DNA of 64,000 bases from Dictyostelium discoideum (GCA_000004695.1 CM000154.2:2816001-2880000), one strand, 5' to 3'; numbered from the stretch's first letter, positions 46,470-64,000 are shown. Numbers and translations: made by a program. Notes: generated by a model from the sequence alone, not told the origin.

Positions 46470-46638
46470 AAATAATTATAATAATAATATTAATAATAAT
46501 AAAAAAAAAAAAAAAACTAGATAGAAATTATTTTATTTATTTTGTTTTATTTATTTTTATTTGTTTTTTTATTTATTTTATTTCATTTATTTTATTTTAT
46601 TTATTTGTTTTATTATTATTTTTTAATTATTATGATTT

Positions 46639-49600
46639 TTATTTTTTTTGGTTATTGTTACCCATTTCATCATCGTCATTGTTATCCATTTCATCATCAT
46701 CATTGTTATCCATTTCTTCATCATAGAAGTCATCCTCCTCATCATTTCCACCCTTGGGTACAACAAAAAATTCATCTTCACTTTGTTCATCACTATCATC
46801 ATTATTATCATCATGATTATCTTTGTTGTTGTCTTGATCAGAGTTTTGAATTGATTGATTTGAATTATTATTTATTTGATTTGATTTATATATATGATCA
46901 AAATCAATTGTTGTGTGTATTAAAAATTTTTCCCAAGTATTATCTTTTGCTAAAACCTTATAGGTACCAATAACGTATAAACCTAACTTGGCTCTTGTTA
47001 GTGCTACATTGATACGTCTACGATCTGAGAGGAAACCAATACCAAATTTTTCGATTGATCTTACACATGACATAATGATGATATCTTTTTCTGAACCTTG
47101 AACACCATCAATTGTTGAAACTGAAATATTTAAATTATGATGTTCAGATCTATTTAGTTGTTCTTTGATTTGATTCATTTGTAATTTATAGGGAGTAATT
47201 ATACCAAATGATAGCTTTTTACATTCTGGATATTTTTCAATTAGTTCCTTTATTAAAGTAAATACCTTATCAATTTCATCTTGATTCATTATGGATTTTT
47301 TAATAACTTTTTGATTTGATTTTGGTAAATCAAAAAATTTCATCGGTCCAAATGAAGGATCGAAATGGAATTTACAATTGTTATAGGAATCTATTGAAAC
47401 GTTTTCACCATCTTTTAAAGTTCCGTTATAGAATTCTTCAGATATGAATTTTGATGTCACTGGATGCATACGATATTGTGTATTTAAAAATTGGACATCG
47501 ATCGATTTGGCTAATCTTTCAAATAATGATATTTTTAAACCACAGTCAGCACCTTGTTTGGAAAAAATAGTTGGTGGCAATTGAACTGGATCACCAACTA
47601 AAATTAACTTTTTAACAGAACCTAATGATAGTGGAATAATTGAGGTTGGTTCTGAAGATTGCGTAGATTCATCAATCAAAACAATATCTGGAGAAAAGTT
47701 TTCAAAAATAGCCTTTGAACCACTTCCAGCTAAAGTTGAGAAAACAATAGACGCTGATTTGATGAGGTTAATTCTTCTTGATGAATTTTTATTTTTAAGA
47801 GAAATTTTTTGACATTCTGGTGATATTTTTTCTTTTCTGCCAGTTCTAACCATGTTTGGTTTAAATATTTGACCATCACTATTTAATAGATTTTTTAAAC
47901 ATCTTTTTGCAACTTCATCTACTGATGCATGTGAAGGACCACATACCAAAATTTTGAACTTTTTGTCAATAGCTAATAAAACTGAAAGTAAATAATTGAT
48001 GGTTGTGGTTTTACCTGTACCTGGTGGACCTTGAATCAATGTTATACCACTCTCAACTAAAGATGATTTAATAGCATTAAGTTGTGATTCATTTAATTTT
48101 TCTTTACAAATTGTTTCCAAGGTTGGTGGGAATTTCATCATTTTTTGGTTCAAATTATTATTGCACCCTGGATTAAAAATAAGATTTTTAATAAATGGTG
48201 ATGCCTTAAATTCTTGAATGCTTCTAATGAATGTTACACTATTTGAAATTTTATTATAATGAATTGATGATTGAGTACTTGAATTTAATGACTTAGTAAA
48301 AAAGTGTGTTGGATTTGAATATAACAAATCGCAAACTATTGATTGTTGATGTAGGCTACCTTGCATTAAATTTGAAGTTTTTCTTACTATTCCAAATGTA
48401 AATTTTGTGCCATCTAAGCCTATTACTTTGAATAATAATATATCACCTACTGAAATTTCTTCCAGTTTATTTCTATTACCATGAATGATTAGTTCAACAG
48501 TTATAAATTTAGTTTGACGACTTATTTGGACAACTTCAATTGCTTCATTCATTTTAATTTTATCGAAACCTTCAAAAGTTCCATCTTTTGCACTATTAAT
48601 CCCATTAAGTGCATTAATTCCATTTTCAACTTGAGCTCTAAAGTCATCGAAAATTAATGGTTTATTTACTATTTGGTATTCTTTTTCTCCTGTATAATTA
48701 TCTGATAATTCACCTATACCATTTGGTTTTAGCAATGGTATTTTCGAAGGTTCACAACTTAAAATTAGATTTAAAGTTTCATCTGGACTTATTGATATTA
48801 CATCAACATAACTGTATATGTAATCAGCCTTAATCTTTGTATTATTATTATTATTATCATTATTATTTGATTTTTTGGTTCCAATGCTATGGACAGATAT
48901 TGTTTCATTTTTAAATAATTGATGAATTTCAATAAATAATAATTCTAAAACAGTTTCTAATCTTTCAGATTCATTCAATTGAAAATTTGGAATCTTTATT
49001 ATTGGAGATATCTTTGATTGAAAATCTTGAATCATTGTAACTTTAGATTTCTCTAAACACCTTGGATCGAATTTAATTTTGTTTTTTGCTAATTCACTTT
49101 TTAAATCATTGAAGGTAGTTCTATTACCTTTTGTTAAATTCCTTAACTCTATATTCTGGTAGTGATGATTAAACTCTATTAAAGCCATTAATGTTAATGT
49201 TTTTTGATATATCAAATTGACAGAACTTTTACGACTTAAATTTTCAGAGGGAATCAATTGATTTAGAGTTCTATTACAATTATTAATCTGTTGTTCAAAT
49301 GATTTTGTATCTTCTTCAATGATCCTTTTTAATTTGTTTAATTTGTTTTGGTTATTGTTTTCATTCTTTAATAATTTATTCAATTCATTGAGAATAAAAA
49401 GAACACTCTTAGGATCTTCAAATATTTTCATTAATAAACTATTTTTTAAACTTTTTTCAATATCAATTGTACTAGCTATTGGATTTGATAATGTTTGTTT
49501 TGGAGTTGTTATCATATCTAGTTTTGGTAAAGCAATTGTAGCTGGTATTGAAGTTGGGACAGCCGCTGGTGTTGTTGTTAATGTTGGTACAACTTGGTTT

Positions 49601-50901
49601 GTAGTAGTAGTTGTATTTAAACTTGGAGTTGGTAACAATGGGACCAATTTTGGAAGTGATATATCTTTGAATAATTCATTAATATCTTTAAACTTTTTTA
49701 ATCTTATTGAGTTTTCCATATGAATAAATTCAACAATAATTCTAAAGAAAGAATTTTGGATTGAAGAAGCAATATTTCTATCTGTTACAAAAGGATCCAA
49801 TACGATCATAGTACTTTTTAGCAAATCTTCATTAACAAGGGATGATCTTTTAAGTAATGGGCCATTTTTACATAGTGTACCACCGCCACTTGAATGACTG
49901 ATTGAAATAATATTCTCCTTATAGTTGAAAATTGAATAGTAGTTAAAGAATAGGTAGAAAAGTTGATCAATTTTTAATTTATTTTTACTTGAATCAAACT
50001 TATCAAAACTTTTAAATTCATAAAATTCAAAAGAATCAATTCGTTTTAAAATTGGATTTGTTGAATAGCTATTTAATAGTTGAGGTGATTTAGTTTGTAA
50101 ATTTGGTAGAATTGGTGTACTAATCGATTGAAGGAAGTGAATTACCATATTAACCAAACAGAAGGAACTAAATGTATGTTTTGATGCGTCATTCAAATTT
50201 TTACAGCTTGCCCACCATTTAACCAATAATGATAGAATGATATATCTATTATCTATGGAACAATATTCTTTCAATAATAATGAATTAAAATAAGCCTTTG
50301 ATGAATTGCAGCTCATATCGAAATGATACTTTGATGATTTCTCTACAAACCTAATTATTGGTACAGTTGCACTTAATCTCTTTTCAATGATTGTGTATAA
50401 CTTTGTTGACTCTAAATATTTGGAAACCACCTCTAAATGAGTTACTTGATTTTCATTTTGATTGATTTTGAAATTAACATCTAAATCACTACCCTCTAAT
50501 GATAATCCAGTTAAAAATGAACCATAGAGTTGAATAGATGAATCCTTAAATTTATTTGATAAAAACATTTCCAATCTATTGAAACTTTTTTCCTTTTTAC
50601 TAACTCTTTTACATTTAATTTTGTTGAATAGGATAATAAGATCATGGGTTATAGCTTTTTGATGTTTTGGAATTTGATAATTTAAATAAAAATCTGGTAT
50701 ATATTCCTTTAAATAATATGCCATATTTAATATATTTTTTTTAAAATCATTACTATGATATCCTTCTTCAGTAGGTTGTTCTTTTCTAAAGGCCTCAAAT
50801 AGTTTTATTGGGTAATCATCACCAATATTTTTTCTACTCTCAGTTTTATTTTCATTAAATTCTTTGTAAATGTTGTTGAAAATTGTAATTTCATCATTAT
50901 T

Positions 50902-50948
<47 letters not shown>

Positions 50949-51645
50949 TATCATTATCATTATTATTATTATAATTATTATTATTATTTAAAGTATTTGA
51001 GTTTGAGTTTGAGTTTGAGTTTGAGGTTGGTTTTTGAGTTTGAGTTTGAGGTTGAGATTGCGTTTGTGTGATTTTTATAACATCTGGAACCTGTTTTAAA
51101 ATGCCAGTAGCCAATGAAGTTTCTTTTAATAATCTAACCTCTTCAAATAGATTTTTAATGGTCATGATTATATTTCCACCATCGAAAGGAAGAGAAAAAT
51201 TAGGGATTTCAAAATAAATAGATGCACCATCAATGATTTCAATTGGTTTTGAAAATTCACTAAGATTTCTTGTAAATATTTTCTTAATTCCAAATCTTGA
51301 CTGAACACTTTCCAATATTGCTGAACATTTTGAAAAATTTAATCCATAAGCTTTGCAATGCTCTTTTAAATATTTTCTTTGACAAAAAAAATTAAATTCA
51401 ATGACCATTCTTAGAACAAGATATTGATTGTAAAAAATACTTGATTTAATTGATTCATTGGATTGATTTTTTAACATTGCCTTCAAACTATGTAATAATT
51501 TACCTAATAAACCATCTCTTCTACTTTTAGATTTTTTAACAAAATCTTTCATTAAATTTAATTCTATTTCATTGCCTTTAAATTGATTTTTAAAACTATC
51601 TATTACTTGAATTTGATCATTAATATCGATTTCTTTGAAAACCAA
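46639..51645 (-). CDS. Fusion protein, copy 1: Cid1/Gld2-family nucleotidyltransferase (Pol-beta NTase + PAP-associated domain) joined to a UPF1/Mov10-like SF1 RNA helicase, 1668 aa, single exon
   Basis: NTase motif LYGSFLTGLSLEGSDLDVNF (hG[GS]...DxD) at ~50465-50530, with a third acidic residue in KYHFDMSCN. PAP-associated domain is ...FSSFCLVNMVIHFLQ. A T/P-rich linker, a coiled coil and a beta-barrel-like segment (ELIIHGNRNKLEEISVGDILLFKVIGLDG) follow. SF1 motifs: I GPPGTGKTTTI (~48010), II VLIDESTQSSEP, III LILVGDPVQLPPT, IV FLNTQYRMHP, V STIDGVQGSEKDIIIMSCVRS, VI GFLSDRRRINVALTRAK. Acidic tail ...DDDEMDNNDDDEMGNNNQKK. A (GAT)n stretch encodes poly-D. Confidence 0.85.
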
Positions 51646-52145
51646 TTCAAAAATATTATTCCTTTGCGCTTTTTTGATTATTAAAAAAAAAAAAGAAAAA
51701 AAAAAAAAAAAAAAATTAATATAAATAAATATATAAATAAATAAATAAATAAATAAGTAAATAATAAAAAAATAAATAAATGATAAATAATAATTAAATA
51801 AATTATCTAAAAATTAATATTAAAAAAATATTTACACATCTTGGTTTATTTATTTATTTATTCAATAAATAAAAAAAAAAGTTGAAAATTAAATGTAAAA
51901 AATGATTTAAATATTTTTTTATAGGGAGAAGTTTAAAAAAAAAAAACGATTTAAATTTTTTTTTTATAGGTTTTGTTTTTTTTTTTTTGAATCAAGGGAA
52001 AATTTTAAAAAAAAAAAAAAAAAAAAAATTTTAAAAATCGTAAAATTCATCAATTATTAAAAAATCTGAGACATGAAAATTATAATGGACATAATTAAAA
52101 AATAATTTATTATTATTTTATTTATTTGGTTTATTTTGTTTTATT

Positions 52146-52202
52146 TTAGAACCTTCAAAAGTTCCAACTTGCAGTAGCGATAATGAAATTAAACTGTGGG
52201 AT
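52146..52202 (+). pseudogene. Relic of the PRP17/CDC40 3' terminus (last ~18 codons + stop) carried along by the tandem duplication
   Basis: 52146..52202 gaaccttcaaaagttccaacttgcagtagcgataatgaaattaaactgtgggattaa would encode EPSKVPTCSSDNEIKLWD*. The true PRP17 end at 46413..46469 encodes EPSKVATCSWNNEIKLWD*. The downstream 3'-flank taaaaataattataata...agatagaaattattttatttatttt is also conserved. Upstream sequence is unrelated to PRP17. Confidence 0.65.
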
Positions 52203-52324
52203 TAAAAATAATTATAATAAAAAAAAAAAAAAACAAGATAGAAATTATTTTATTTATTTTATTTTATTTATTTTATTTTTATTTTTATTTATTTTTTTTA
52301 TTTTATTTATTTTATTTATTATTA

Positions 52325-55300
52325 TTATTTTTTATTATCATGATTTTTATTTTCTTTGTCGTTGTTGCCCATTTCATCATCGTCATTGTTATCCATTTCA
52401 TCATCATTGTTATCCATTTCTTCATCATCATAAAAGTCATCCTCCTCATCATTTCCACCCTTGGGTACAACAAAAAATTCATCTTCACTTTGTTCATCAC
52501 TATCATCATTATTGTCATCATGATTATTATTATTATTATTATTATTTGTTATTTCTCCACCATTATTTTCATTCTTTATCTCTAATTGATTTTCATTTTC
52601 TTTTTTATTTTCATTTTCATTTTCATTTTTATTTTCATTTTTATTTTCGTTTTCGTTTTCATTTTCATTTTCATTTTTATTTTTATTTTCATTTTCATTT
52701 TTATTTTCATTTTCATTTTCATTTTCACTTTTATTATCAATAGTATTATTATTATGATTATCTTTGTTGTCTTGGTTAGAGTTTTGAATTGATTGAATTG
52801 AATTATTATTTATTTGATTTGATTTATATATCTGATCAAAATCAATTGTTGAGTATTTTAAAAAATTTCCCCAAGTATTATCTTTTTCTAAGACCCAAGA
52901 GGTACCAATAACGTATAAACCTAACTTGGCTCTTGTTAGTGCTACATTGATACGTCTACGATCTGAGAGGAAACCAATTCCATATTTTTCGGTACATCTT
53001 ACACATGACATGATAATGATATCTTTTTCTGAACCTTGAACACCATCAATTGTTGAAACTGAAATATTTAAATAACGATGTTCAGATCTGTTTAATTGTT
53101 CTTTGATTTGAATCATTTGTAATTTATAGGGAGTAATTATACCAAATGATAGCTTTTTACATTCTGGATATTTTTCAATTAGTTCCTTTATTAAAGTAAA
53201 TACCTTATCAATTTCATCTTGATTCATTATGGATTTTTTAATAACTATTTGATCTGATTTTGGTAAATTAAAAAATTTCATTGGCCCGAATGAAGGATCG
53301 AAATGGAATTTACAATTGTTAAAGGAGTCTATCGAAACATTTTCACCATCTTTTAAAGTTCCGTTATAGAATTCTTCAGATATGAATTTTGATATCACTG
53401 GATGCATACGATATTGTGTATTTAAAAATTGGACATCGATCGATTTGGCTAATCTTTCAAATAATGATATTTTTAAACCACAGTCAGCACCATCTTTTGA
53501 AAAAATAGTTGGTGCTAATTGAACTGGGTCACCAACTAAAATTAACTTTTTAATAGAACCTAATGATAGTGGAATAATTGAGGTTGGTTCTGAAGATTGT
53601 GTAGATTCATCAATCAAAACAATATCTGGAGAAAAGTTTTCAAAAATAGCCTTTGAACCACTTCCAGCTAAAGTTGAGAAAACAATAGAGGTTGACTTGA
53701 TGAGGTTAATTCTTCTTGATGAATTTTTATTTTTAAGAGAAATTTTTTGACATTCTGGTGATATTTTTTCTTTTCTGCCAGTTCTAACCATGTTCGGTTT
53801 AAAATTTTGACCATCACTATTTAATAGATTTTTTAAACATCTTTTTGCAACTTCATCTACTGATGCATGTGAAGGACCACATACCAAAATTTTGAACTTT
53901 TTGTCAATAGCTAATAAAACTGAAAGTAAATAATTGATGGTTGTGGTTTTACCTGTACCTGGTGGACCTTGAATCAATGTTATACCACTCTCAACTAAAG
54001 ATGATTTAATAGCATTAAGTTGTGATTCATTTAATTTTTCTTTACAAATTGTTTCCAAGGTTGGTGGGAATTTCATCATTTTTTGGTTCGAATTATTATT
54101 ATTATTATTATTATGTCCTGGATTATAAATAAGATTTTTAATAAATGGTGATGCCTTAAATTCTTGAATGGTTCTAATGAATGTTACACTATTTGAAATT
54201 TTAATATAATCAATTGATGATCTAGTGCTTGGATTTAATGATAAAGTAAAAACATATGTTGGATTTGAATCAAACAAATCACAAACTATTGATTGTTGAT
54301 GTAGGCTACCTTGCATTAAATTTGAAGTTTTTCTTACTATTCCAAATATAAACTTTGTGCCATCTAAGCCTATTACTTTGAATAGTAATATATCACCTAC
54401 TGAAATTTCTTCCAATTTATTTCTATTACCATGAATGATAAGCTCAACAGTTTCAAATTCAGTTTGACGACTTCTTTGGACAACCTCAATTGATTCATTC
54501 ATTTTAATTTTATCGAAACCTTCTAAAGTACCATCTTTTTTACTTAGAATGATCCCATTGAGTGCATTAATTCCATTTTCAACTTGAGCTCTAAAGTCAT
54601 CGAAAATTAATGGTCTCATTAAGTTTTGATATTGTTTATCTCCTGTAAAATTATCTGATAATTCATCAATACCAGTTGCTCTTAGCAATGGTATTTTCGA
54701 AGGTTGACAACTTAAAATTAGATTTAATGTTTCTTCTGGACTTATTGACATTACATCAACATAATCGTATATGTAATTAGCCTTATTATTATTATTATTA
54801 TTATTATTATTTTTTGATTTTTGTATCACGAATACAGAACCTGTTTCCATTTGAAATAATTGATGAATTTCATTAAATAATAATTCTATAACAGTTTCTA
54901 ATCTTTCAGATTCATTCAATTGAAAAGTTGGAATCTTTATTATTGAAGAGATCTTTGATCGAAAATCTTTAATCATTGTAATTTTATCCTCTTTTATACT
55001 CTTTGGATCGAATTTAATTTTGCTTTTTGCTAATTCACTATTTAAATCATTGAAATTAGTTCTATTATCTTTTGTTAAATTCCTTAACTCTATATACTGG
55101 TAGTGATGATTAAACTCTATTAAAGCCATTAATGTTAATGTTTTTTGAAATATCAAATTGACAGAACTTTTACAACTTGTATTTTCAGAGGGAATCAATT
55201 GTTTTAGAGTTTTATTACAATTACTAATCTGTTGACTAAATGAGTCTTTTTCTTCTTCAATGATTTTTTTTAATTTGTTTAATTGATTTCGGATATTGTT

Positions 55301-56846
55301 TTCATTTTTTAATAAATTTTCCAATTCACTGAGAATAAAAACAACATTCTGTGGATTTTGAAATATTTTCATTAATAAACTATTTTCTAAACCTTTTTCA
55401 ACATTTATTGTAGCTGGTTTTGAAGTTTTAGTTGTTAGTGGAGTTGGTTTTGAGGTTGAATTTGTAGTTGTTGTTGTAGTTGGTGGAGCTGGTTTTGAAG
55501 TTGAATTTGTAGTTGAAGTTGGAGTTGGTGCAACTGTTTTTGTAATATTGGTATTTGTAGTTGTATTTGTAATCGGTAACAATGAAACTAGTGTTGGAAG
55601 TGATATATCTTTGAATAATTCATTAATATCTTTAAACTTTTTTAATCTTATTGAGTTTTCCATATGAATAAATTCAATAATAATTCTAAAGAAAGAATTT
55701 TGGATTGAAGAAGCAATATTTCTATCTGTTATAAATGGATCCAATACGATCATAGTACTTTTTAGCAAAGCTTCATTAACAAGGGATGATCTTTTAAGTA
55801 GTGGGCCATTTTTACATAATGAACCGCCGCCACTTGAATGACTGATTGAAATAATATTCTCTTTGTAGTTGAAAATTGAATAGTAGTTAAAGAATAGGTA
55901 GAAAAGTTGATCAATTTTTAATTTATTTTTACTTGAATCAAACTTATCAAAACTTTTAAATTCATAAAATTCAAAAGAATCAATTCGTTTTAAAATTGGA
56001 TTTGTTGAATAGCTATTTAATAGTTGAGGTGATTTAGTGTGTAAATTTGGTAAAATTGGTGTACTAATCGATTGAAGGAAGTGAATTACCATATTAACCA
56101 AACAGTAAGAACTAAATGTATGTTTTGATGCATCATTCAAATTTTTACAGCTTGTTCACCATTTAACCAATAATGATAGAATGATACATCTATTATCTAT
56201 GGAACAATATTCTTTCAATAATAATGAATTAAAATAAGCCTTTGATGAATTGAAACTCATATCGAAATGATACTTTGATGATTTCTCTACAAACCTAATT
56301 ATTGGTACAGTTGCACTTAATCTCTTTTCAATGATTGTGTATAACTTTGTTGACTCTAAATATTTGGAAACCACCTCTAAATGAGTTACTTGATTTTCAT
56401 TTTGATTGATTTTGAAATTAACATCTAAATCACTACCCTCTAATGATAATCCAGTTAAAAATGAACCATAGAGTTGAATAGATGAATCCTTAAATTTATT
56501 TGATAAAAACATTTCCAATCTATTAAAACTATTTTCCTTTTTACTAACTCTTTTGCATTTAATTTTGTTGTATATGATTTCAAGATCATGGTTTACAATT
56601 TTTTGATGTTTTGGAATTTGATTATTTGAATTAGGATCTGGTATAAAATTCCTTGAATAATATGCCATATTTAATATATTATGTTTAAAATCATTACTAT
56701 AATATCCTTCTTCAGTTGGCTTTTCTTTTTTAAAAACCTCTAATAGTTTTATTGGGTAATCATCACCAATATTTTTTCTACTTTCGTTTCTATTTTCATT
56801 AAATTCTTTGTAAATGTTGTTGAAAATTGTAATTTCATCATTATTT

Positions 56847-56899
<53 letters not shown>

Positions 56900-57526
56900 G
56901 TTGTTGTTATTATTGGTTAAAGTGTTTGGTGATTTTGATTGCGTTTGTGTGATTTTTGTAACCTTTGGTACCATTTCTAAAACACCAGTACCCAATGAGG
57001 TTTTTTTTAATATTGTAACCTCTTCACGTAGATTTTTAATGGACATGATAATATTTCCACCTTCGAAAGGAAGAGAAAAATTAGGGATTTCTAAATGAAT
57101 AGCACCATCAATGATTTCAATTGGTTTTGAAAATTCACTTGGATCTCTTGTCAATAGTCTCTTTGTTCCACCTAATCTTGAATGAATATTATCCAATTTT
57201 GGTGAATATTTTGAAATATTTAAACCATTGGTTTCACAATACTCTTTGAAATAAATTCTTTGATAATAAAAATTAAATTCGATGATCATTCTAAAAACAA
57301 GATATTGATTGTAAAGAATACTTGATTTAATTGATTTAAAGGATTGTTTTTTAAACATGGTCTTCAAATGACTTGATATTCCACCTCCTAAACTATTTCT
57401 TCTACTTTTAGATTTTTTTATAAAATCTTTCATTAAATTTAATTTTATTTCATTGCCTTTAAATTGATTTTTAAAACTATCTATTACTTGAATTTGATCA
57501 TTAATATCGATTTCTTTGAAAACCAA
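52325..57526 (-). pseudogene. NTase-helicase fusion gene, copy 2: colinear paralog of 46639..51645, interrupted by one in-frame TGA between the NTase/PAP module and the helicase module (pseudogene, or split into two ORFs)
   Basis: ORF 56156..57526 (456 aa: N-terminus, NTase motif LYGSFLTGLSLEGSDLDVNF, start of PAP domain) ends ...LLVKW* at TGA 56156..56158, where copy 1 has TGG (WWAS). The frame continues open as ORF 52325..56140 (...TSCKNLNDASKHTFSSYCLVNMVIHFLQ..., all SF1 motifs I-VI intact; the next true ATG is the M of VNMVIH). Copy-specific changes: a poly-N tract ((AAT)n) where copy 1 has poly-D, and a C-terminal (ENENKN)n expansion from (TTTTCA)n. Nucleotide identity to copy 1 is ~93% in the helicase core (one 200-nt stretch compared by eye) and lower elsewhere. 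Confidence 0.75.
52566..52735. repeat. (TTTTCA/TTTTCG/TTTTTA)n hexamer microsatellite inside the copy-2 helicase gene (encodes (ENENKN)n on the minus strand)
   Basis: ttttcattttcattttcatttttattttcatttttattttcgttttcgttttcattttcattttcatttttattt.... In frame within ORF 52325..56140; absent from copy 1. Confidence 0.8.
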
Positions 57527-58222
57527 TTCAAAAATATTATTTCTTTGCGCTTTTTCGATTATTAAAAAAAAAAAAAAAATTAGTTGACATATTTAAAAAA
57601 ATAAATCAAAAAATAAATAAATAATAAATAATAAATAATTAATATTTTAAAAATATTTACCCATCTTAATTTATTTATTTATTGAAGCTGTGTTCAATAT
57701 AGAATAAATAAATATAAAAAGTTTAAAATTAAATAATTTTTAAATTTATTATTACAGGCTTTGTTTTTTTTTTTTGAATTAAGGGAGAAGCTTTTTTTTT
57801 TTGAAAAGATTAAAAAAAAAAAATAAAAAATAAAAAAAAATAAAAATCTTTTTCAATCGTAAAATTCATCAATTAATATTTTCTATCTGAGATAAGAAAA
57901 TTTTAATAAACAACATAATTAAAAAACAATTATTTTTTAGTATTTAATTTTTTTTGGTTCAATTATTTTATTTTTATTTTATTTTATTTTTTTTATTTTA
58001 TTTGTTTTGTTGTCAATTTTTTTTTTTTTTTTTTTTTTTTTGGTTTTATTTTTCATTTTTTTAATTTTATTTATTTTTAATAAAAATTTATTATACAATA
58101 ATAGAGCACCCCAGAAACACAAAATGATTTAAAATATAAAAAAATTTAATTTTTTACATATCTCACACCTTCATTTCTGAATATAGTTTAGATTATTATT
58201 ATTATTATTGTTATTATCATTA

Positions 58223-58277
<55 letters not shown>

Positions 58278-58318
58278 TTTTGTGATTAAAAATTTTTTTT
58301 TTTTTAAAAATTTTTTGA

Positions 58319-58475
58319 CACTTAGATTTTACAGTTAGTTAAACTTAAAAACTTGAAAATTTTCAAGTTCTCTGTTACTTCATATTAATAAAAATTGCAT
58401 ATTATTTTCCACATGTGTCACTTAATAATAATTTCTGTTTATAAAAATTACCTATTATTTTAAATATATTAGTAA
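58319..58475 (+). promoter_or_regulatory. Conserved upstream module of actin paralog 1 (about -275 to -120 from the ATG)
   Basis: cacttagattttacagttagttaaacttaaaaacttgaaaattttcaagttctctgttacttcatattaat...ccacatgtgtcac...tttctgtttataaaaattacctattattttaaatatat. The same blocks appear upstream of paralogs 2 and 3. Confidence 0.5.
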
Positions 58476-58593
58476 AAAAAAAAAAAAAACTAGTTTAATA
58501 AACCTAATGTAATTTTAAAATAATTAAAAAAAAAAAAAAAAAATAACCAATAATAAGTTGTAAATATTCAAATAATAATCAAAATAATAAAAA

Positions 58594-59725
58594 ATGGAAT
58601 GTGAAGATGTTCGACCTATAGTTATTGATAATGGTTCTGGTATGTATAAAGCTGGTTTTGCTAGTGATGATGCTCCACGTACAATTTTTCCATCAATTGT
58701 TGGTCATCCAAAGTGCAATGGTTTTATGGTTGACATAGATCAAAAAGATTCATATGTTGGTGATGAAGCTCAATCAAAAAGGGGTATTCTAAATGTTAAA
58801 TATCCAATTGAACGTGGTATTATTACCAATTGGGATGATATGGAAAAAATCTGGTATCATACTTTTTATAATGAACTTGGTGTTTCCTATGGAACATCCA
58901 GTTCTCTTAACTGAACCACCACTAAATCCAAATAAAAATAGAGAGAAAATGACTCAAATCATGTTTGAAACTTTCAATACTCCTGAATTGTATGTTGCAA
59001 TTCAAGCTGTATTATCATTATATGCTTCTGATCGTACAACTGGTATCGTTTTGGATTCAGGTGATGGTGTTTCCCATACCGTACCGGTTTATGGTAGTTA
59101 TGCATTACCTCATGCAATTAGACGTTTACATTTAGCTGGTGGTGATCTTACTGATTACATGTGTAGAATGTTAAACTTTGAACGTTGTTACTCATTCACA
59201 ACAACTACTGAAAGAGAAGTAGTTAGAGGTATTAAAGAGAAATTAGCATATGTTGCATTGGATTTTGGAGCTGAAATGCAAACTGCAGCCTCATCATCTG
59301 CATTAGAGAAATCATATGAATTACCAGATGGCCAAGTTATTACAATCGGTAATGAACGTTTCCGTTGTCCAGAAGCACTTTTCCAACCGTCATTATTGGC
59401 TATGGACTATGATGGTATTCATGAAACAATCTATAATTCAATCATGAAATGTGATGTTGGTATTCATAAAGATTTATTTGGTAGTGTTGTATTATCAGGT
59501 GGTTCAACTATGTTCCCTGGTATTGCAGATCGTATGAATAAAGAATTAACTGCACTTGCACCATCAACAATGAAAATTAAAATTATTGCACCACCAGAAC
59601 GTAAATACTCTGTATGGATTGGTGGTTCAATTTTAGCTTCAGTTTCAACTTTCCAACAAATTTGTATTTCAAAAGAAGAATATGACGAATCTGGTCCATC
59701 AATTGTTCACAGAAAATGTTTCTAA
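58594..59725 (+). pseudogene. Divergent actin paralog with a 2-bp deletion frameshift (actin pseudogene, or a sequencing error)
   Basis: ORF 58594..58914 ([40 protein letters not shown]...[19 protein letters not shown]) switches frame to ORF 58793..59725 (...[39 protein letters not shown]...IVHRKCF*). Paralog 2 has cgtgttgctccagaggaacatcc (RVAPEEHP) where this copy has ggtgtttcctatggaacatcc, two nucleotides shorter (~58878-58900). It is otherwise full length. Confidence 0.7.
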
Positions 59726-59807
59726 TTTTTTAAAAGAAAAAAAATATATTTTTAAATCGAATCTAAAATTAGTTTTGGTCTGTGAAGTTGGCAAAAGAAA
59801 ATTAGCG

Positions 59808-59845
<38 letters not shown>

Positions 59846-60087
59846 AATAACATATTGATGGAATATATCTTCTTTCATTAATTTTATAATCAAATTAAAT
59901 TTATTTCTCTTTTTTTAAATTATTACTTTATTTTTAAATTTCTACTTTTTTTTTTTTTTTTTTTATTTTAAAATCTTGGTGGCAATTAAAAAAAATAAAA
60001 TAAAACAAAAATAATAAATAATAATAAAATTTAAAAACTAAATAAAAATTAATTTGCATTATCCAATATTATTTATTTATTTGTTTA

Positions 60088-60138
<51 letters not shown>

Positions 60139-60150
60139 GATACTATTTTT

Positions 60151-60270
60151 GATTTGATTTTGTTAATTAAATTCAATTTGATTTGGTTTGATTTGATTTG
60201 ATTTGATTTGGTTGGGTTCGATTTGATTTGATTTAATTTGATTTGATTCGATTTGATTTGATTTGATTTA
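60151..60270. repeat. (GATTT)n microsatellite (~22 units, a few variant units) between actin paralogs 1 and 2
   Basis: gatttgattttg...atttggtttgatttgatttgatttgatttggttgggttcgatttgatttgatttaatttgatttgattcgatttgatttgatttgattta. The track ORF 60069..60344(-) (SNQIKSNQIK...) is simply its translation. Confidence 0.8.
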
Positions 60271-60420
60271 CTTTTTTTTATGCAAAAATTGCGTTTTAAA
60301 TATTTTCTTAATTTTTTAATTTTTTTAAAAAAAAAAAATTTCAAGTTTTTTTTTTTTAAAAATATTATTTTTTTTTTGTATTAAGATAATAAAAAGTAAT
60401 TCAACTCAATTTGACTATGA

Positions 60421-60560
60421 TTCTATGACGCTGACCCCTCAGATTTTTCAGTCAGTTAAAAAAACTTGAAATTTTCAGTTCTCTGTTAATTCATATTAAT
60501 TTCTGTTTATAAAAATTACATATTATTTTAAATATATACTCCACATGTTTATAATTATTA
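60421..60560 (+). promoter_or_regulatory. Conserved upstream module of actin paralog 2, with the GC-rich motif GCTGACCCCTCAGATTTTTCAGT
   Basis: gacgctgacccctcagatttttcagtcagttaaaaaaacttgaaattttcagttctctgttaattcatattaatttctgtttataaaaattacatattattttaaatatat...ccacatgttt. Block order and spacing are shared with 58319..58475 and 62281..62400. Confidence 0.5.
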
Positions 60561-60727
60561 TTTTTTTTTTTTTTATTGGTAAAAAAAAAAAAAATAAAAA
60601 AATAAAAAAATTAACAGTTTATTTTAATAAACCTTAAATAATTTAAAATCATTAATAAAAAAATAAAAAAACAATACAGAGTTATATATCACAAATAATA
60701 ATCAAATAATAATCAAAATAATATAAA

Positions 60728-61861
60728 ATGGAATGTAAAGAAGACCTAACAATAGTTATTGATAATGGTTCTGGTATGTGTAAAGCTGGTTTTGCTGGTT
60801 ATGATGCTCCACATGCAGTTTTTCCATCAATTGTTGGTCGTCCTAGACATACTGGTGTTATGGTTGGTATGGGTCAAAAGGATTCATATATTGGTGATGA
60901 AGCTCAATCAAAAAGGGATATTCTAAATCTTAAATTTCCAGTTGAGCGTGGTATTATTACCAATTGGAATGATATGGAAGAAATCTGGCATCATACTTTT
61001 TATAATGAACTTCGTGTTGCTCCAGAGGAACATCCAGTTCTCTTAACTGAACCGCCATTAAATTCAAAAGCAAATAGAGAGAAAATGCCTCAAATCATGT
61101 TTGAAACTTTCAATACTCCTGCAATGTATGTTGCAATTCAAGCTGTATTATCATTATATGCATCTGGTCGTGCAACTGGTGTCATTCTGGATTCAGGTGA
61201 TGGTGTTTCTTATACTGTACCAGTTTATGAAGGTAATACATTTCCACTTTCAATTACACGTTTACATTTAGCTGGTGGTGATCTTACTGATTACATGAGT
61301 AGATTATTATACACTGATTGTGGTTACTACTTTTCAACAAAAGCTGAAAAAGAAATAGTTAAAGATATTAAAGAGAAATTAGCATATGTTGCATTGGATT
61401 TTGAAGCTGAAATGCAAACTGCAGCCTCATCGCCTTCATTAGAGAAATCATATAAATTACCAGATGGTCGAATGATCACAATTGGTAATGAACGTTTCCG
61501 TTGTCCAGAAGCACTTTTCCAACCATCATTATTGGCTATGGACTATGATGGTATTCATGAAACAACCTATAATTCAATCATGAAATGTGATGTTGATTTT
61601 CATAAAGATTTATATGGTAATGTTTTATTATCAGGTGGTTCAACTATGTTCCCAGGTATTGCAGATCGTATGAATAAAGAATTAACTGCACTTGCACCAT
61701 CAACAATGAAAATTAAAATTATTGCACCACCAGAACGTAAATACTCTGCATGGATTGGTGGTTCAATTTTAGCCTCACTTTCAAGTTTCCAACCAAGGTG
61801 GATTTCAAAAGAAGAATATGACGAATCTGGTCCATCAATTGTTCACAGAAAATGTTGGTAA
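60728..61861 (+). CDS. Divergent actin-family protein, 377 aa, intact, single exon
   Basis: Colinear with conventional actin over the full length: [63 protein letters not shown]...[16 protein letters not shown]...[48 protein letters not shown]. Many substitutions relative to canonical Dictyostelium actin (MDGEDVQALV...HRKCF). Confidence 0.85.
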
Positions 61862-62280
61862 TTTTTTAAAAGAAAAAAAAAAAAATACTATTTTTTTAAT
61901 TAAATAAGAAATATATAAATGGTTGTTTAAAATTATTACCATGAATATTATAAGAATTACTATTTTTAAATATATAAACTGAGATGTAAATTAATAAAAT
62001 AATTTATTTTGCCAGAATGTAATAATTATATCTCACTAATAAAAATATCCATATAAGGAAATATTAAAAAAAAAAAAAAAAAACAGAAAATTTACATTCA
62101 TTTTTTTTATATTTTAAATCATTGATGATTTACACGTGCATTCTGAATATTTTCCTTGTTTTTTATTTTTTTTTTTTTTTTTTAATTATATAAAATTTTG
62201 TTTTTAAGTTTTTTTTTTTTTTTTAAGCAAAATATTTATTTTTCAAATTACAACATTATGACAACCAAAAGTGATTTCTA

Positions 62281-62400
62281 TGGGGCTGACCCCTTAGATT
62301 TTTCAGTTATTTAAACTTAAAAAAACTTGAAATTTTTAATTTCTCTGTTACTTAATATTAATTTCATATTATTTTAAATATATATGTTCATTATTATTAT
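62281..62400 (+). promoter_or_regulatory. Conserved upstream module of actin paralog 3, with GGGGCTGACCCCTTAGATTTTTCAGT
   Basis: tggggctgaccccttagatttttcagttatttaaacttaaaaaaacttgaaatttttaatttctctgttacttaatattaatttcatattattttaaatatat. GCTGACCCCT is a very GC-rich 10-mer for this genome and occurs at the same relative position as in paralog 2. Confidence 0.5.
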
Positions 62401-62510
62401 TATTAAAAAAAAAAAAAATTAATTTTTTTAAAATAAACCTAAAATAATTTAAAATCATAAAAAACCAACAATAAGGAACATATATCAAATAATAATCAAA
62501 ATAATATAAA

Positions 62511-63668
62511 ATGGAATGCGAAGAAGTTCAAGCCATAGTTATTGATAATGGTTCTAGTGTGTGTAAAGCTGGTTTTGGTGGTGATGATGCTCCTCGTACA
62601 GCTTTCCCATCAATTGTTGGTCGTCCAAGATGTACTGGTTTTATAGTTGATATGGATAAAAAAGATTCATATTTTTGTAAAAAGAATTCGTGTTTTATGG
62701 GTCAAAAGGATTTATATATTGGTGATGAAGCTCAATCAAAAAGAGGTATTCTAAATGTTAAATATCCAATTGAACGTGGTATTATTACAAATTGGAATGA
62801 CATGGAAGAAATCTGGTATCATACTTTTTATAATGAACTTCATGTTGCTCCAGAGGAACATCCAGTTCTCTTAACTGAACCACCATTAAATCCAAAAGCA
62901 AATAGAGAGAAAATGACTCAAATCATGTTTGAAACTTTCAAAACCCCTGCAATATATGTTGCCAATCAAGGTGTATTATCATTATATTCTACTGGTCTTA
63001 CAACTGGTATCGTTATGAATTCGGGTGATGGTGTTTCTCATACTGTGCCAGTTTATGAAGGTTATATTTTACGTCAAGCAATTTTAAGTTTAGATTTAGC
63101 TGGTCGTGATCTTACTGATTACATGAATGAATTATTAACTGATCGTGGTTACTACTTTACAACAAAGGGTGAAAAAGAAATAGTTAGAGGTATTAAAGAG
63201 AAATTATCATATGTTGCATTAGACTTTGAAGCTGAAATGCAAATTGCCTCCGCATCGCCTGCATTAGAGAAATCATATGAATTACCAGACGGTCAAGTTA
63301 TTACAATTGGTAATGAACGTTTCCGTTGTCCAGAAGCACTTTTCCGACCATATACTGGTATTCATGAAACAATCTATAATTCAATCATGAAATGTGATGA
63401 TGATATTCGTAAAGATTTATTTGGTAGTGTTGTATTATCAGGTGGTTCAACTATGTTTCCAGGTATTGTAGATCGTATGAATAAAGAATTAACTGCACTT
63501 GCACCATCAACAATGAAAATTAAAATTATTGCACCACCAGAACGTAAATACTCTGTATGGATTGGTGGTTCAATTTTAGCCTCACTTTCAAGTTTCCAAC
63601 CAAGGTGGATTTCAAAAGAAGAATATGACGAATCTGGTCCATCAATTGTTCACAGAAAATGTTTCTAA
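62511..63668 (+). CDS. Divergent actin-family protein, 385 aa, with an in-frame 9-codon insertion and a 6-codon deletion relative to its neighbour
   Basis: [78 protein letters not shown]... carries a local duplication ([20 protein letters not shown]) inside the DNase-I-loop region. [12 protein letters not shown] lacks the SLLAMDYD block of paralog 2. The reading frame is intact to ...IVHRKCF*. Confidence 0.8.
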
Positions 63669-64000
63669 AAAAAAAAAAAAAAAAAAATTAGTTAAATTAA
63701 TAAAATAAAATAAAAATTATAAAAACAAAAAAAAAAACAAAAAAAAAAAAAAAGTATGGTAAAATAAAAATAAAATAAAAATTATAAAAACAAAAAAAAA
63801 AAAAATTAAAAAAAAAAAAAAATAGAATTAGTTTCTTGTCGATAAAAGAAATAATCACTCATATAAATTTTTTTCACTAGTGACATAATTTTGGCTCTAG
63901 TTACGTAATATATTATAGTAAAGCATTCGCTGAAAAAAAAAAGGTTAAAAATTAAAAAATAAAACAAAAAAAAAAAAAAAACAAAAAACTAAAAGTCTAA

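What the first reader, a model, noticed from the sequence alone, without database searches (positions are those of the whole stretch)
58319..63668. Tandem array of three divergent actin paralogs with a shared promoter module that contains an unusually GC-rich motif
Three same-strand actin-family genes lie ~2.1 and ~1.8 kb apart. All start MECE/K..., not the canonical MDGE, and carry dozens of substitutions. Copy 1 has a frameshift. Copy 3 has a 9-codon internal duplication in the D-loop region and a 6-codon deletion. Yet all three keep the same ~150-bp upstream architecture: AGATTTTTCAGT...AAACTTGAAAATTTTCA..TTCTCTGTTACTTCATATTAAT...TTTCTGTTTATAAAAATTAC.TATTATTTTAAATATAT...CCACATGT. In copies 2 and 3 it is headed by GCTGACCCCT. 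Conservation of the promoter while the coding sequence drifts suggests these are regulated, specialised actins (for example developmental or spore-specific), and the shared motifs are candidate transcription-factor sites.
Basis: partly seen in the sequence, partly recalled or inferred. Interest (0 to 1): 0.5.

Follow-up and report, generated by a model that had tools for sequence, protein, structure and literature searches.

The report
Known Dictyostelium actin cluster act30_ps–act24–act25
These are three already named divergent actin genes of Dictyostelium discoideum (the pseudogene act30_ps, then act24 and act25), and their shared upstream sequence is the promoter and leader copied with each tandem duplication, which has drifted at least as much as the coding sequence.

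Summary
Three same-strand actin genes sit at 58594-59725, 60728-61861 and 62511-63668, and they share an upstream module that occurs nowhere else in the window. They are known genes: act30_ps (2-nt deletion after codon 98), act24 (DDB_G0289505) and act25 (DDB_G0289507). They form the 5' end of a cluster of at least eight actin genes, which continues with act27, act36_ps, act28, act3 and act18.

Among paralogues the module is 57-69% identical when indels are counted, against about 90% for the CDS. Across six copies in two species, 63% of ungapped upstream columns are invariant, against 73% of CDS columns. Between D. discoideum and a sister species the modules are 84-90% identical at aligned sites. 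That is no better than an orthologous pseudogene pair (92.6%) or the CDS (91%), though it is better than the neighbouring spacer (62-76%).

act24 and act25 are still not junk. Their reading frames, including the act25 D-loop insertion, are intact in both species, although dN/dS is about 0.66-0.85. A simulation gives P of about 0.01 for that under neutrality. Published RNA-seq lists both genes as developmentally regulated.

Verdict: an ordinary birth-and-death tandem gene family that is already annotated, so interest is low.

The parts
58133..58190 (+). Distal upstream homology of act30_ps (…ACATATCTCACACCTTCATTTCTGAATATAG). It is a counterpart of the act25 distal element and is orthologous to the sequence just upstream of the truncated pseudogene in the sister species.
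   Evidence: Sequence. Alignment with L002 6380-6450. Pattern search.
58319..58593 (+). Upstream module of act30_ps (promoter and leader copy). Its 5' boundary falls inside block A (TTTGACACTTAGATTTTACAGT). The CATATTATTTT segment is partly duplicated. CCACATGT lies at 58409-58416. There is no oligo(dT) run.
58350..58369 (.). Perfect 20-bp palindrome AACTTGAAAATTTTCAAGTT. It is degenerate in every other copy.
   Evidence: Six-way alignment.
58594..59725 (+). act30_ps, an actin pseudogene. A 2-nt deletion at 58884/58885 shifts the frame after codon 98, leaving ORFs of 106 aa and 258/279 aa.
   Evidence: It matches the Table 1 description in PMC2441452. The orthologue in the sister species is also dead, through different lesions.
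60420..60727 (+). Upstream module of act24. Features: GCTGACCCCT 60430-60439; AGATTTTTCAGT 60441; AACTTGAAATTTTCAGTTCTCTGTTAATTCATATTAAT 60463-60500; TATAAAAAT 60508-60516; CCACATGT 60541-60548; T14 run 60561-60574; A-rich leader with AATAAACCT at 60626 and CAAATAATAATCAAAATAATATAAA directly before the ATG.
60728..61861 (+). act24 (DDB_G0289505, 'Putative actin-24'), 377 aa, intact.
   Evidence: 100% identity to P0038. Pfam 449 bits. Orthologue at L002 10001-11134 with dN 0.093 and dS 0.109.
62045..62065 (.). The same sequence lies 28 nt upstream of the act27 and act28 ATG and is conserved in the sister species.
   Evidence: CCW6GG as such is not enriched in the window (5 observed against 5.8 expected).
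62133..62160 (+). Distal conserved element ATTTACACGTGCATTCTGAATATTTTCC, about 130 nt upstream of the act25 module.
62265..62510 (+). Upstream module of act25. Features: GACAACCAAAAGTGATTTCTATGGGGCTGACCCCTTAGATTTTTCAGT (GCTGACCCCT at 62285-62294); AACTTGAAATTTTTAATTTCTCTGTTACTTAATATTAAT. It lacks the TATAAAAAT block, CCACATGT and the T-run, and the same pieces are missing in the sister-species orthologue.
62511..63668 (+). act25 (DDB_G0289507, 'Putative actin-25'), 385 aa, intact. It has a D-loop triplication of a 7-codon unit at 62655-62720, an 18-nt deletion at 63350/63351 and a 3-nt deletion.
   Evidence: Exact match to Q54HF0/XP_636188.1.. Orthologue at L002 11788-12954 (388 aa) with the same D-loop insertion.

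Best explanation
The window ends in the first three members of the Dictyostelium discoideum chromosome-5 cluster of divergent actins: act30_ps, act24 and act25. The cluster continues with act27, act36_ps, act28, act3 and act18.

The three genes descend from tandem duplications of a unit that carried its own 5' flank. That flank comprised a distal element, a T-rich spacer, the module, a TATA box, an oligo(dT) run and an A-rich leader. The shared 'promoter module' is therefore shared by descent. It is most likely the core promoter and 5' UTR of this sub-subfamily (inferred, not shown). It has since decayed by substitutions at about the neutral rate and by many indels, so it has diverged more than the coding sequence, not less.

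act30 is dead in both species compared. act24 and act25 are transcribed and developmentally modulated. They evolve almost as fast as neutral sequence at the amino-acid level (dN/dS 0.66-0.85), yet their reading frames are kept open by selection. This is the pattern of weakly constrained, non-canonical actins in a birth-and-death gene family.
For: Identity of the genes:
- act24 is 100% identical to DDB_G0289505 and act25 is an exact match to DDB_G0289507.
- act30_ps matches the published description: two bases deleted, frameshift after codon 98, a 106-aa ORF (PMC2441452).

Cluster and duplication history:
- The cluster extends beyond the window.
- act36_ps is an act25-type copy in which GCTGACCCCTTAGATTTTTCA is fused to about codon 255. 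[act25+act27] and [act36_ps+act28] form a higher-order duplication.
- The duplicated block is module + CDS + about 20 nt, and distal homology extends further upstream.

No excess conservation of the module:
- CDS identity among paralogues is 89-90.5%. The module shows 6-10% mismatches plus 11-16 indel events per pair.
- With gaps counted, paralogous modules are 0.57-0.69 identical and orthologous modules 0.76-0.81.
- The six-way invariant fraction is 63.5% upstream and 72.9% in the CDS.
- Cross-species identity at aligned sites is 0.897 and 0.836 for the two modules. The benchmarks are 0.926 for the pseudogene pair, 0.91 for the CDS and 19/155 differences at helicase 4-fold sites.

Selection on the reading frames:
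- The orthologues are intact, the D-loop insertion is shared and all indels are in frame.
- Simulated P(no stop) is 0.010 for act24 and 0.006 for act25.

Expression: act24 and act25 are on differential-expression lists built from uniquely mapped reads.

Promoter anatomy: in act24 a TATAAAAAT box and a T14 run precede an A-rich leader. This fits the TATA / oligo(dT) / cap-site architecture described for Dictyostelium genes (own knowledge: Kimmel & Firtel 1983; Firtel et al. 1979, cited in PMC2441452).
Against: - No transcription start site or reporter data were available, so the promoter function of the module is an inference.
- The module is more conserved between species than the surrounding spacer (0.84-0.90 against 0.62-0.76).
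- All five intact genes keep it collinear, whereas all four pseudogene copies have it truncated, deleted or split. Some constraint on short sites is therefore not excluded.
- Synonymous divergence is compressed in this AT-rich genome (dS 0.1-0.25 for all actin pairs), so the dN/dS values are rough.
- Gene conversion is suggested by the near-identical 3' 280 nt. It could both repair ORFs and blur the divergence estimates.
Confidence: 0.8

Rival explanations
1. The module is a selectively maintained, specialised cis-regulatory unit. Its transcription-factor sites would include the GC-rich GCTGACCCCT, the AACTTGAAA..TTTCA dyad and CCACATGT. It would give these actins a common stage-specific (for example spore-specific) expression.
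For: - The module is present upstream of all intact MECE-type genes in two species.
- It is more conserved than the adjacent spacer between species.
- A C-rich core (CCCTTAG) is retained in 7 of 8 copies despite a strongly AT-biased context.
- act24 and act25 are developmentally regulated.
Against: - The module is not more conserved than the CDS, a pseudogene pair or 4-fold sites.
- It has 11-16 indels per paralogue pair.
- The dyad is perfect only in the pseudogene copy, and its right arm varies freely elsewhere.
- act25 lacks the TATA block, CCACATGT and the T-run in both species.
- act27 has an unrelated promoter and shares the same down-regulation list.
- No binding factor is known for any of these motifs.
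Confidence: 0.2
2. All three copies are functionless relics. act24 and act25 would be pseudogenes whose reading frames happen to be open or are repaired by gene conversion, and the transcripts would be noise.
For: - dN/dS is 0.66-0.91.
- There are 54-56 changes at 346 positions that are identical between human beta-actin and Dd Act3. About 25 are lineage-specific in each orthologue, including G15S and D154N in act25 and H161Y in act24.
- The CDS diverges between species as fast as the act30 pseudogene pair.
- The cluster is littered with pseudogenes.
Against: - P(no stop) is 0.010 and 0.006 under neutral simulation.
- act24 has no indel against its orthologue and act25 has only in-frame indels, whereas the pseudogene pair has 3 indels per 1 kb.
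- Both genes show significant differential expression with uniquely mapped reads.
- Derived residues shared by all six copies (T66N, H73R, S271Y) point to a period of common constrained history.
Confidence: 0.1
3. Concerted evolution. The upstream similarity is maintained by ongoing gene conversion between the paralogues rather than by descent or selection.
For: - The last ~280 nt of the CDS are nearly identical among paralogues (dS 0.017-0.05).
- In that region within-species paralogues are slightly closer than orthologues.
- The orthology signal is weak in the first 110 codons.
Against: - In the module itself the orthologues are clearly the closest pairs: 0.81 and 0.76 against 0.57-0.69 for paralogues.
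- The same holds in the central CDS: 0.91-0.93 against 0.87-0.90.
- Copy-specific indels, such as the act25 TATA deletion, are shared by orthologues and not by paralogues.
Confidence: 0.1

Closest known systems
act30_ps, act24 and act25 of the D. discoideum 'actinome' (Joseph et al. 2008, PMC2441452)
   Same: They are identical sequences. act24 is DDB_G0289505 and act25 is DDB_G0289507. act30_ps has the published 2-base deletion after codon 98 and the 106-aa ORF.
   Different: Nothing differs at the gene level. In the passages read, that paper does not describe the shared upstream module of these three genes, their orthologues in a sister species or their evolutionary rates.
Subfamily homologies in the flanking sequences of Dictyostelium actin genes (Romans & Firtel 1985, J Mol Biol 183:311, cited in PMC2441452; content recalled from title and memory, paper not readable here)
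   Same: Actin genes that arose by duplication share 5' and 3' flanking homology and dyad symmetries upstream. [quoted passage not shown]
   Different: I could not verify whether these three genes were among those sequenced in 1985. The neighbouring genes act3 and act18 have a different upstream module and share only the last ~25 nt of the leader.
Canonical Dictyostelium core promoter (TATA box, oligo(dT) run, A-rich 5' UTR; own knowledge, Kimmel & Firtel 1983)
   Same: act24 has TATAAAAAT, a T14 run and then an A-rich leader of about 150 nt. Dc_g1 and Dc_g2 have the same arrangement.
   Different: act25 (in both species) and act30_ps lack the T-run, and act25 also lacks the TATAAAAAT block. 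No transcription start site has been mapped.
Birth-and-death evolution of tandem multigene families
   Same: The cluster mixes intact genes, frameshifted genes, a truncated gene and fusion or stub copies (act30_ps, act36_ps, the stub at L001 15007-15068, three pseudogenes in the sister species). Gene content also differs between species: Dc_g1 has no D. discoideum counterpart.
   Different: The unusual point is that the family is actin, normally among the most conserved proteins, evolving here at dN/dS of about 0.7-0.85.

Membership tests
Actin family (Pfam PF00022) | Full-length match to the actin profile above the gathering score | tested here: met
   act24 scores 449.5 bits and act25 463.4 bits against a cut-off of 27. 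The two act30_ps ORFs cover profile positions 2-91 and 92-410.
Canonical (Act8-type) conventional actin | Near-invariant sequence, including nucleotide-site residues (G15, D154, H161) and His73 | tested here: not met
   There are 54-56 changes at 346 positions shared by human beta-actin and Dd Act3. H73R is present in all six copies, G15S and D154N in act25, and H161Y in act24.
D. discoideum act24 / act25 / act30_ps (actinome nomenclature) | Sequence identity to the named gene products, and the published lesion of act30_ps | tested here: met
   (exact matches to DDB_G0289505 and DDB_G0289507). (2-nt deletion after codon 98; 106-aa ORF).
Unprocessed pseudogene (act30_ps) | A disabling lesion that is real (not a sequencing error), and loss of constraint | tested here: met
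   The lesion is present in a second assembly. The orthologue in D. cf. discoideum is independently disabled by a 5' truncation, a stop codon, and 2-nt and 3-nt deletions.
Selectively constrained cis-regulatory module (phylogenetic footprint) | Conservation exceeding a neutral benchmark across paralogues and orthologues | tested here: not met
   The module is 0.84-0.90 identical between species, against 0.926 for the pseudogene pair and 0.91 for the CDS. Six-way invariant columns are 63.5% upstream against 72.9% in the CDS. Paralogues are 0.57-0.69 identical with indels counted. The module is, however, more conserved than the adjacent spacer (0.62-0.76).
Selectively constrained cis-regulatory module (phylogenetic footprint) | Demonstrated factor binding or requirement for expression | not testable with these tools
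   No ChIP, reporter or TSS data were accessible. Literature searches found nothing on these promoters.
Canonical Dictyostelium core promoter | TATA box followed by an oligo(dT) run upstream of the cap site | tested here: inconclusive
   It is present in act24 (TATAAAAAT 60508-60516, T14 60561-60574) and in Dc_g1 and Dc_g2. The T-run is absent from act25 and act30_ps. The cap site is unknown.
Expressed, developmentally regulated gene | Significant change in transcript abundance in a developmental time course using unique read mapping | tested here: met
   PMC4403905 Additional file 7: act24, act25 and act27 are in filter DOWN_Hr16_gradual, and act24 is in suspension UP_Hr03_gradual. Methods: bowtie -m 1, baySeq FDR <= 0.01. 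Absolute expression levels were not retrievable.

The most novel reading that the evidence does not exclude
act24 and act25, with their sister-species orthologues and Dc_g1, could form a selectively maintained, fast-evolving actin sub-subfamily. It would be marked by T66N, H73R (loss of the methylated histidine), S271Y and, in act25, a triplicated D-loop unit. Its own developmental promoter would contain real binding sites: ACCCCTTAGATTTTTCAGT, GTTCTCTGTTA..ATTAAT and a conserved CArG-like box upstream of act25, act27 and act28. Such proteins might act as regulators or cappers of filaments, or evolve under diversifying selection, rather than as structural actin.
Probability: 0.2. Interest if true: 0.45.

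Novelty: already known. Interest (0 to 1): 0.15.

Why it matters
The practical value is mainly in cleaning up the record. The three genes are named and annotated, and the apparent "conserved promoter" is co-duplicated flank, not a footprint. One modest biological point remains. Members of one of the most conserved protein families evolve here at close to the neutral rate, yet they keep open reading frames, and even a D-loop triplication, across a species split. They are also transcribed during development. That makes act24 and act25 reasonable candidates for studying how redundant actin copies either decay or acquire accessory roles. It is not a new kind of system.

Tried and rejected
- Rfam scan of 57500-64000 at E <= 1. 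It returned only sub-threshold mir-3533 hits inside the actin CDS, an artefact of actin homology. No RNA family matches the module.
- tRNA scan of the whole window: none found, so the GC-rich motif is not a tRNA remnant.
- The short ORF that starts in the act25 spacer (MTTKSDFYGADPLDFS…) was considered as a coding element. I rejected it because its frame is not conserved in the sister species and because it is an artefact of the act36_ps gene call.
- A second protein-database search with the N-terminal 162 aa of Act25 returned only generic actins at 74% identity or less. It did not even return Act25, so it says nothing about other species.
- Tandem Repeats Finder on the D-loop insertion found nothing. 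The triplication was shown by direct comparison instead: 14-16 of 21 nt between units.
- Literature searches for DDB_G identifiers and for actin promoter dyads found nothing beyond the actinome paper. The supplements of two RNA-seq papers did not contain these genes. PMC411832 could not be read.
- An unmasked blastn of the repeat units against the window was swamped by low-complexity hits. Only the top hits were used.
- A first helicase dN/dS calculation was wrong, because MAFFT dropped stop symbols and shifted the codons. It was redone.
- The CCW6GG (CArG) pattern is not enriched in the window. Only the specific conserved 16-21-mer is notable.

Full report
**1. What is in the sequence**

The window is very AT-rich: GC is 0.12-0.37 per kb. 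Its last 5.4 kb hold three + strand actin ORFs at 58594-59725, 60728-61861 and 62511-63668, beginning MECED, MECKE and MECEE.

- A tblastn search with copy 2 finds only these three actin genes in the window.
- Pfam PF00022 scores 449 bits for copy 2 and 463 bits for copy 3. The two ORFs of copy 1 join at profile positions 91/92.
- Copy 1 is 1132 nt long and has a 2-nt deletion at 58884/58885.
- Relative to copy 2, copy 3 carries a 45-nt insertion, an 18-nt deletion and a 3-nt deletion.
- The insertion consists of two extra degenerate copies of the 21-nt unit that encodes the D-loop motif GQKDSYI. The three units read [14 protein letters not shown] and GQKDLYI, and they share 14-16 of 21 nt.

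**2. The upstream module**

A three-way alignment confirms a shared module of about 215-290 nt directly upstream of each ATG.

- Its motifs occur only there. GTTCTCTGTTAATTCATATTAAT with up to 3 mismatches gives 3 hits against 0.00 expected.
- GCTGACCCCT occurs only at 60430 and 62285. Such GC-rich 10-mers are rare in this context: 53 of 16,900 windows.
- Copy 3 lacks TTTCTGTTTATAAAAATTAC and CCACATGT. Copy 1 has TTTGACACTT in place of GCTGACCCCT.
- The 20-bp palindrome AACTTGAAAATTTTCAAGTT is perfect only in copy 1, the pseudogene.

**3. Identity of the genes**

- Copy 2 is 100% identical to DDB_G0289505, "Putative actin-24" of D. discoideum AX4.
- Copy 3 is an exact match to DDB_G0289507, "Putative actin-25".
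- A second assembly of the locus (L001) differs from the window only in homopolymer lengths and carries the same frameshift.
- L001 shows that the array continues past the end of the window with act27, act36_ps, act28, act3 and act18.
- act36_ps is an act25-type copy. Its called ORF starts in the act25-type spacer and reads through GCTGACCCCTTAGATTTTTCA, which is fused directly to about codon 255.
- [act25+act27] and [act36_ps+act28] form a higher-order duplication. A 9-codon stub of an act3-type gene lies between them.
- act3 and act18 have a different upstream module and share only the last ~25 nt of the leader.

**4. Is the promoter more conserved than the coding sequence?**

It is not, either within the species or between species.

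Within D. discoideum:

| Measure | Upstream module | CDS |
|---|---|---|
| Pairwise nucleotide identity among paralogues | 90-94% at aligned sites, with 11-16 indel events per pair | 89-90.5% |
| Identity with gap positions counted | 0.57-0.69 | – |

The blastn block shared by copies 1 and 2 runs from the start of the module to about 20 nt past the stop codon (58321-59744 against 60438-61880). A further distal element, TTTACACnnGCATTCTGAATATTTTCC, lies about 130 nt upstream of the module in five or six copies.

**5. Cross-species test**

The syntenic locus of "Dictyostelium cf. discoideum" (L002) has the same helicase-like neighbour and a collinear actin cluster.

Orthology:

- act24 corresponds to L002 10001-11134.
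- act25 corresponds to L002 11788-12954. That gene is 388 aa and has the same D-loop insertion.
- act30_ps corresponds to a 5'-truncated pseudogene at L002 6450-7454. The pair is 92.6% identical, with 74 substitutions and 3 indels. The L002 copy does not share the 2-nt deletion but has its own stop codon and deletions.
- One further intact MECE-type gene in that species (Dc_g1) has no D. discoideum counterpart.

Identity at aligned sites between the two species:

| Region | Identity |
|---|---|
| act24 module | 0.897 |
| act25 module | 0.836 |
| act24 CDS | 0.911 |
| act25 CDS | 0.907 |
| act24-act25 spacer | 0.758 |
| Other flanks | about 0.62 |

Further comparisons:

- The conserved domain of the neighbouring helicase gives dS 0.163 and 19/155 differences at 4-fold sites.
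- Over six copies (three per species), 72.9% of CDS columns are invariant. The three codon positions give 0.69, 0.79 and 0.71.
- Only 148 of 463 upstream columns are ungapped, and 63.5% of those are invariant.
- The best upstream blocks are GTTCTCTGTTAATTCATATTAAT (78% invariant) and the last 30 nt before the ATG (87%). Both lie inside the distribution of CDS windows of the same size.
- Modules follow orthology: 0.81 and 0.76 for orthologous pairs against 0.57-0.69 for paralogous pairs. Gene conversion is therefore not what keeps them similar.

Conclusion: the module is alignable because it was duplicated with the gene. It is somewhat better preserved than low-complexity spacer, but no better than neutral benchmarks.

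**6. Are the genes alive?**

- dN/dS is 0.66-0.91 among the three paralogues.
- Between orthologues it is 0.85 for act24 and 0.66 for act25. For comparison, it is 0.25 for act18 and 0.34 for the helicase.
- Synonymous divergence is compressed for all actin pairs in this genome, so these ratios are approximate.
- At 346 positions identical between human beta-actin and Dd Act3, act24 has 54 changes and act25 has 56. About 25 are lineage-specific in each orthologue.
- All six copies share T66N, H73R, A108P/S and S271Y. act25 has G15S and D154N, and act24 has H161Y.
- Despite this near-neutral rate, act24 has no indel against its orthologue, and act25 differs from its orthologue only by in-frame indels.
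- A simulation used the substitution spectrum of the pseudogene pair. It gives P(no premature stop) of 0.010 for act24 and 0.006 for act25.
- Published RNA-seq used 50-nt reads, unique hits only and FDR <= 0.01. It lists act24, act25 and act27 among genes declining gradually after 16 h of filter development, and act24 among genes up by 3 h in cAMP-pulsed suspension (PMC4403905, Additional file 7).
- The actinome paper names act26, act27, act32 and act33, but not act24 or act25, as genes without ESTs.
- Some gene conversion is likely in the last ~280 nt of the CDS.

**7. Mechanism**

Shown:

- The genes arose by tandem duplication, and the flank was co-duplicated.
- Some copies have been lost: act30_ps, act36_ps and three pseudogenes in the sister species.
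- The reading frames of act24 and act25 are maintained, and both genes are transcribed.

Inferred:

- The module is the core promoter and 5' UTR. In act24, TATAAAAAT (60508-60516) and a T14 run (60561-60574) precede an A-rich leader, which is the classical Dictyostelium arrangement (own knowledge).
- Short sites within the module may be functional. All five intact genes keep it collinear, whereas the four pseudogene copies have it truncated, deleted or split.
- No transcription factor can be assigned to any of the motifs.

**8. Verdict**

This is an already annotated actin cluster. The "conserved promoter" argument is not supported. The remaining interest is modest and lies in fast-evolving but maintained actin paralogues.

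Noticed in passing
window 62045-62065; L001 13593, 15191, 16282; L002 11321, 13713: A CArG-like box (ATATCCATATAAGGAA, core CC(A/T)6GG) lies 462 nt upstream of the act25 ATG. The same sequence lies 28 nt upstream of the act27 and act28 ATG. It is conserved at both places in the sister species. It could be a site for a MADS-box factor (SrfA/SrfB), but this is untested. The bare pattern is not enriched in the window (5 observed against 5.8 expected).
   Followed up: partly
window 46485-52147 vs 52203-57974: A tandem segmental duplication of about 5.7 kb (87-90% identity) lies immediately upstream of the actin cluster. It carries a Upf1-like helicase gene (AAA_11/AAA_12) and its neighbour. Both copies match a single region of the sister-species locus.
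   Followed up: partly
L001 15007-15068 and 15281-15688 (beyond the window end): Two more relics lie in the cluster. One is a stub consisting of an act3-type leader plus 9 codons (MESEDVQAL). The other is act36_ps, in which the act25-type upstream module is fused directly to about codon 255 of actin, so that the annotated 135-aa ORF begins in former promoter DNA.
   Followed up: yes
L002 8073-9206 and 19440-20051: The sister species has an extra intact MECE-type actin (Dc_g1, 377 aa) with a complete module and no D. discoideum counterpart. It also has an eighth, frameshifted MECE-type copy whose module is split by an insertion of about 450 nt that contains a repeated GGCCTTTATCTATAATT…TTTTATAGATTATA segment.
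   Followed up: partly
window 60141-60268: A GATTT/GATTTGATTT microsatellite-like array of about 130 nt sits in the act30_ps-act24 spacer. It occupies the place where the other copies have the distal upstream element.
   Followed up: no
act24/act25/act30_ps and the three sister-species genes, actin residue 73: All six MECE-type copies have Arg in place of His73, the histidine that is methylated in conventional actins. They also share T66N and S271Y.
   Followed up: partly
window 61535-61618 and 59399-59482: Sub-threshold Rfam hits to mir-3533 (36.5 and 27.5 bits against a gathering score of 104) lie inside the actin coding sequence. They are best explained as an artefact of actin-derived sequence in that family.
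   Followed up: yes
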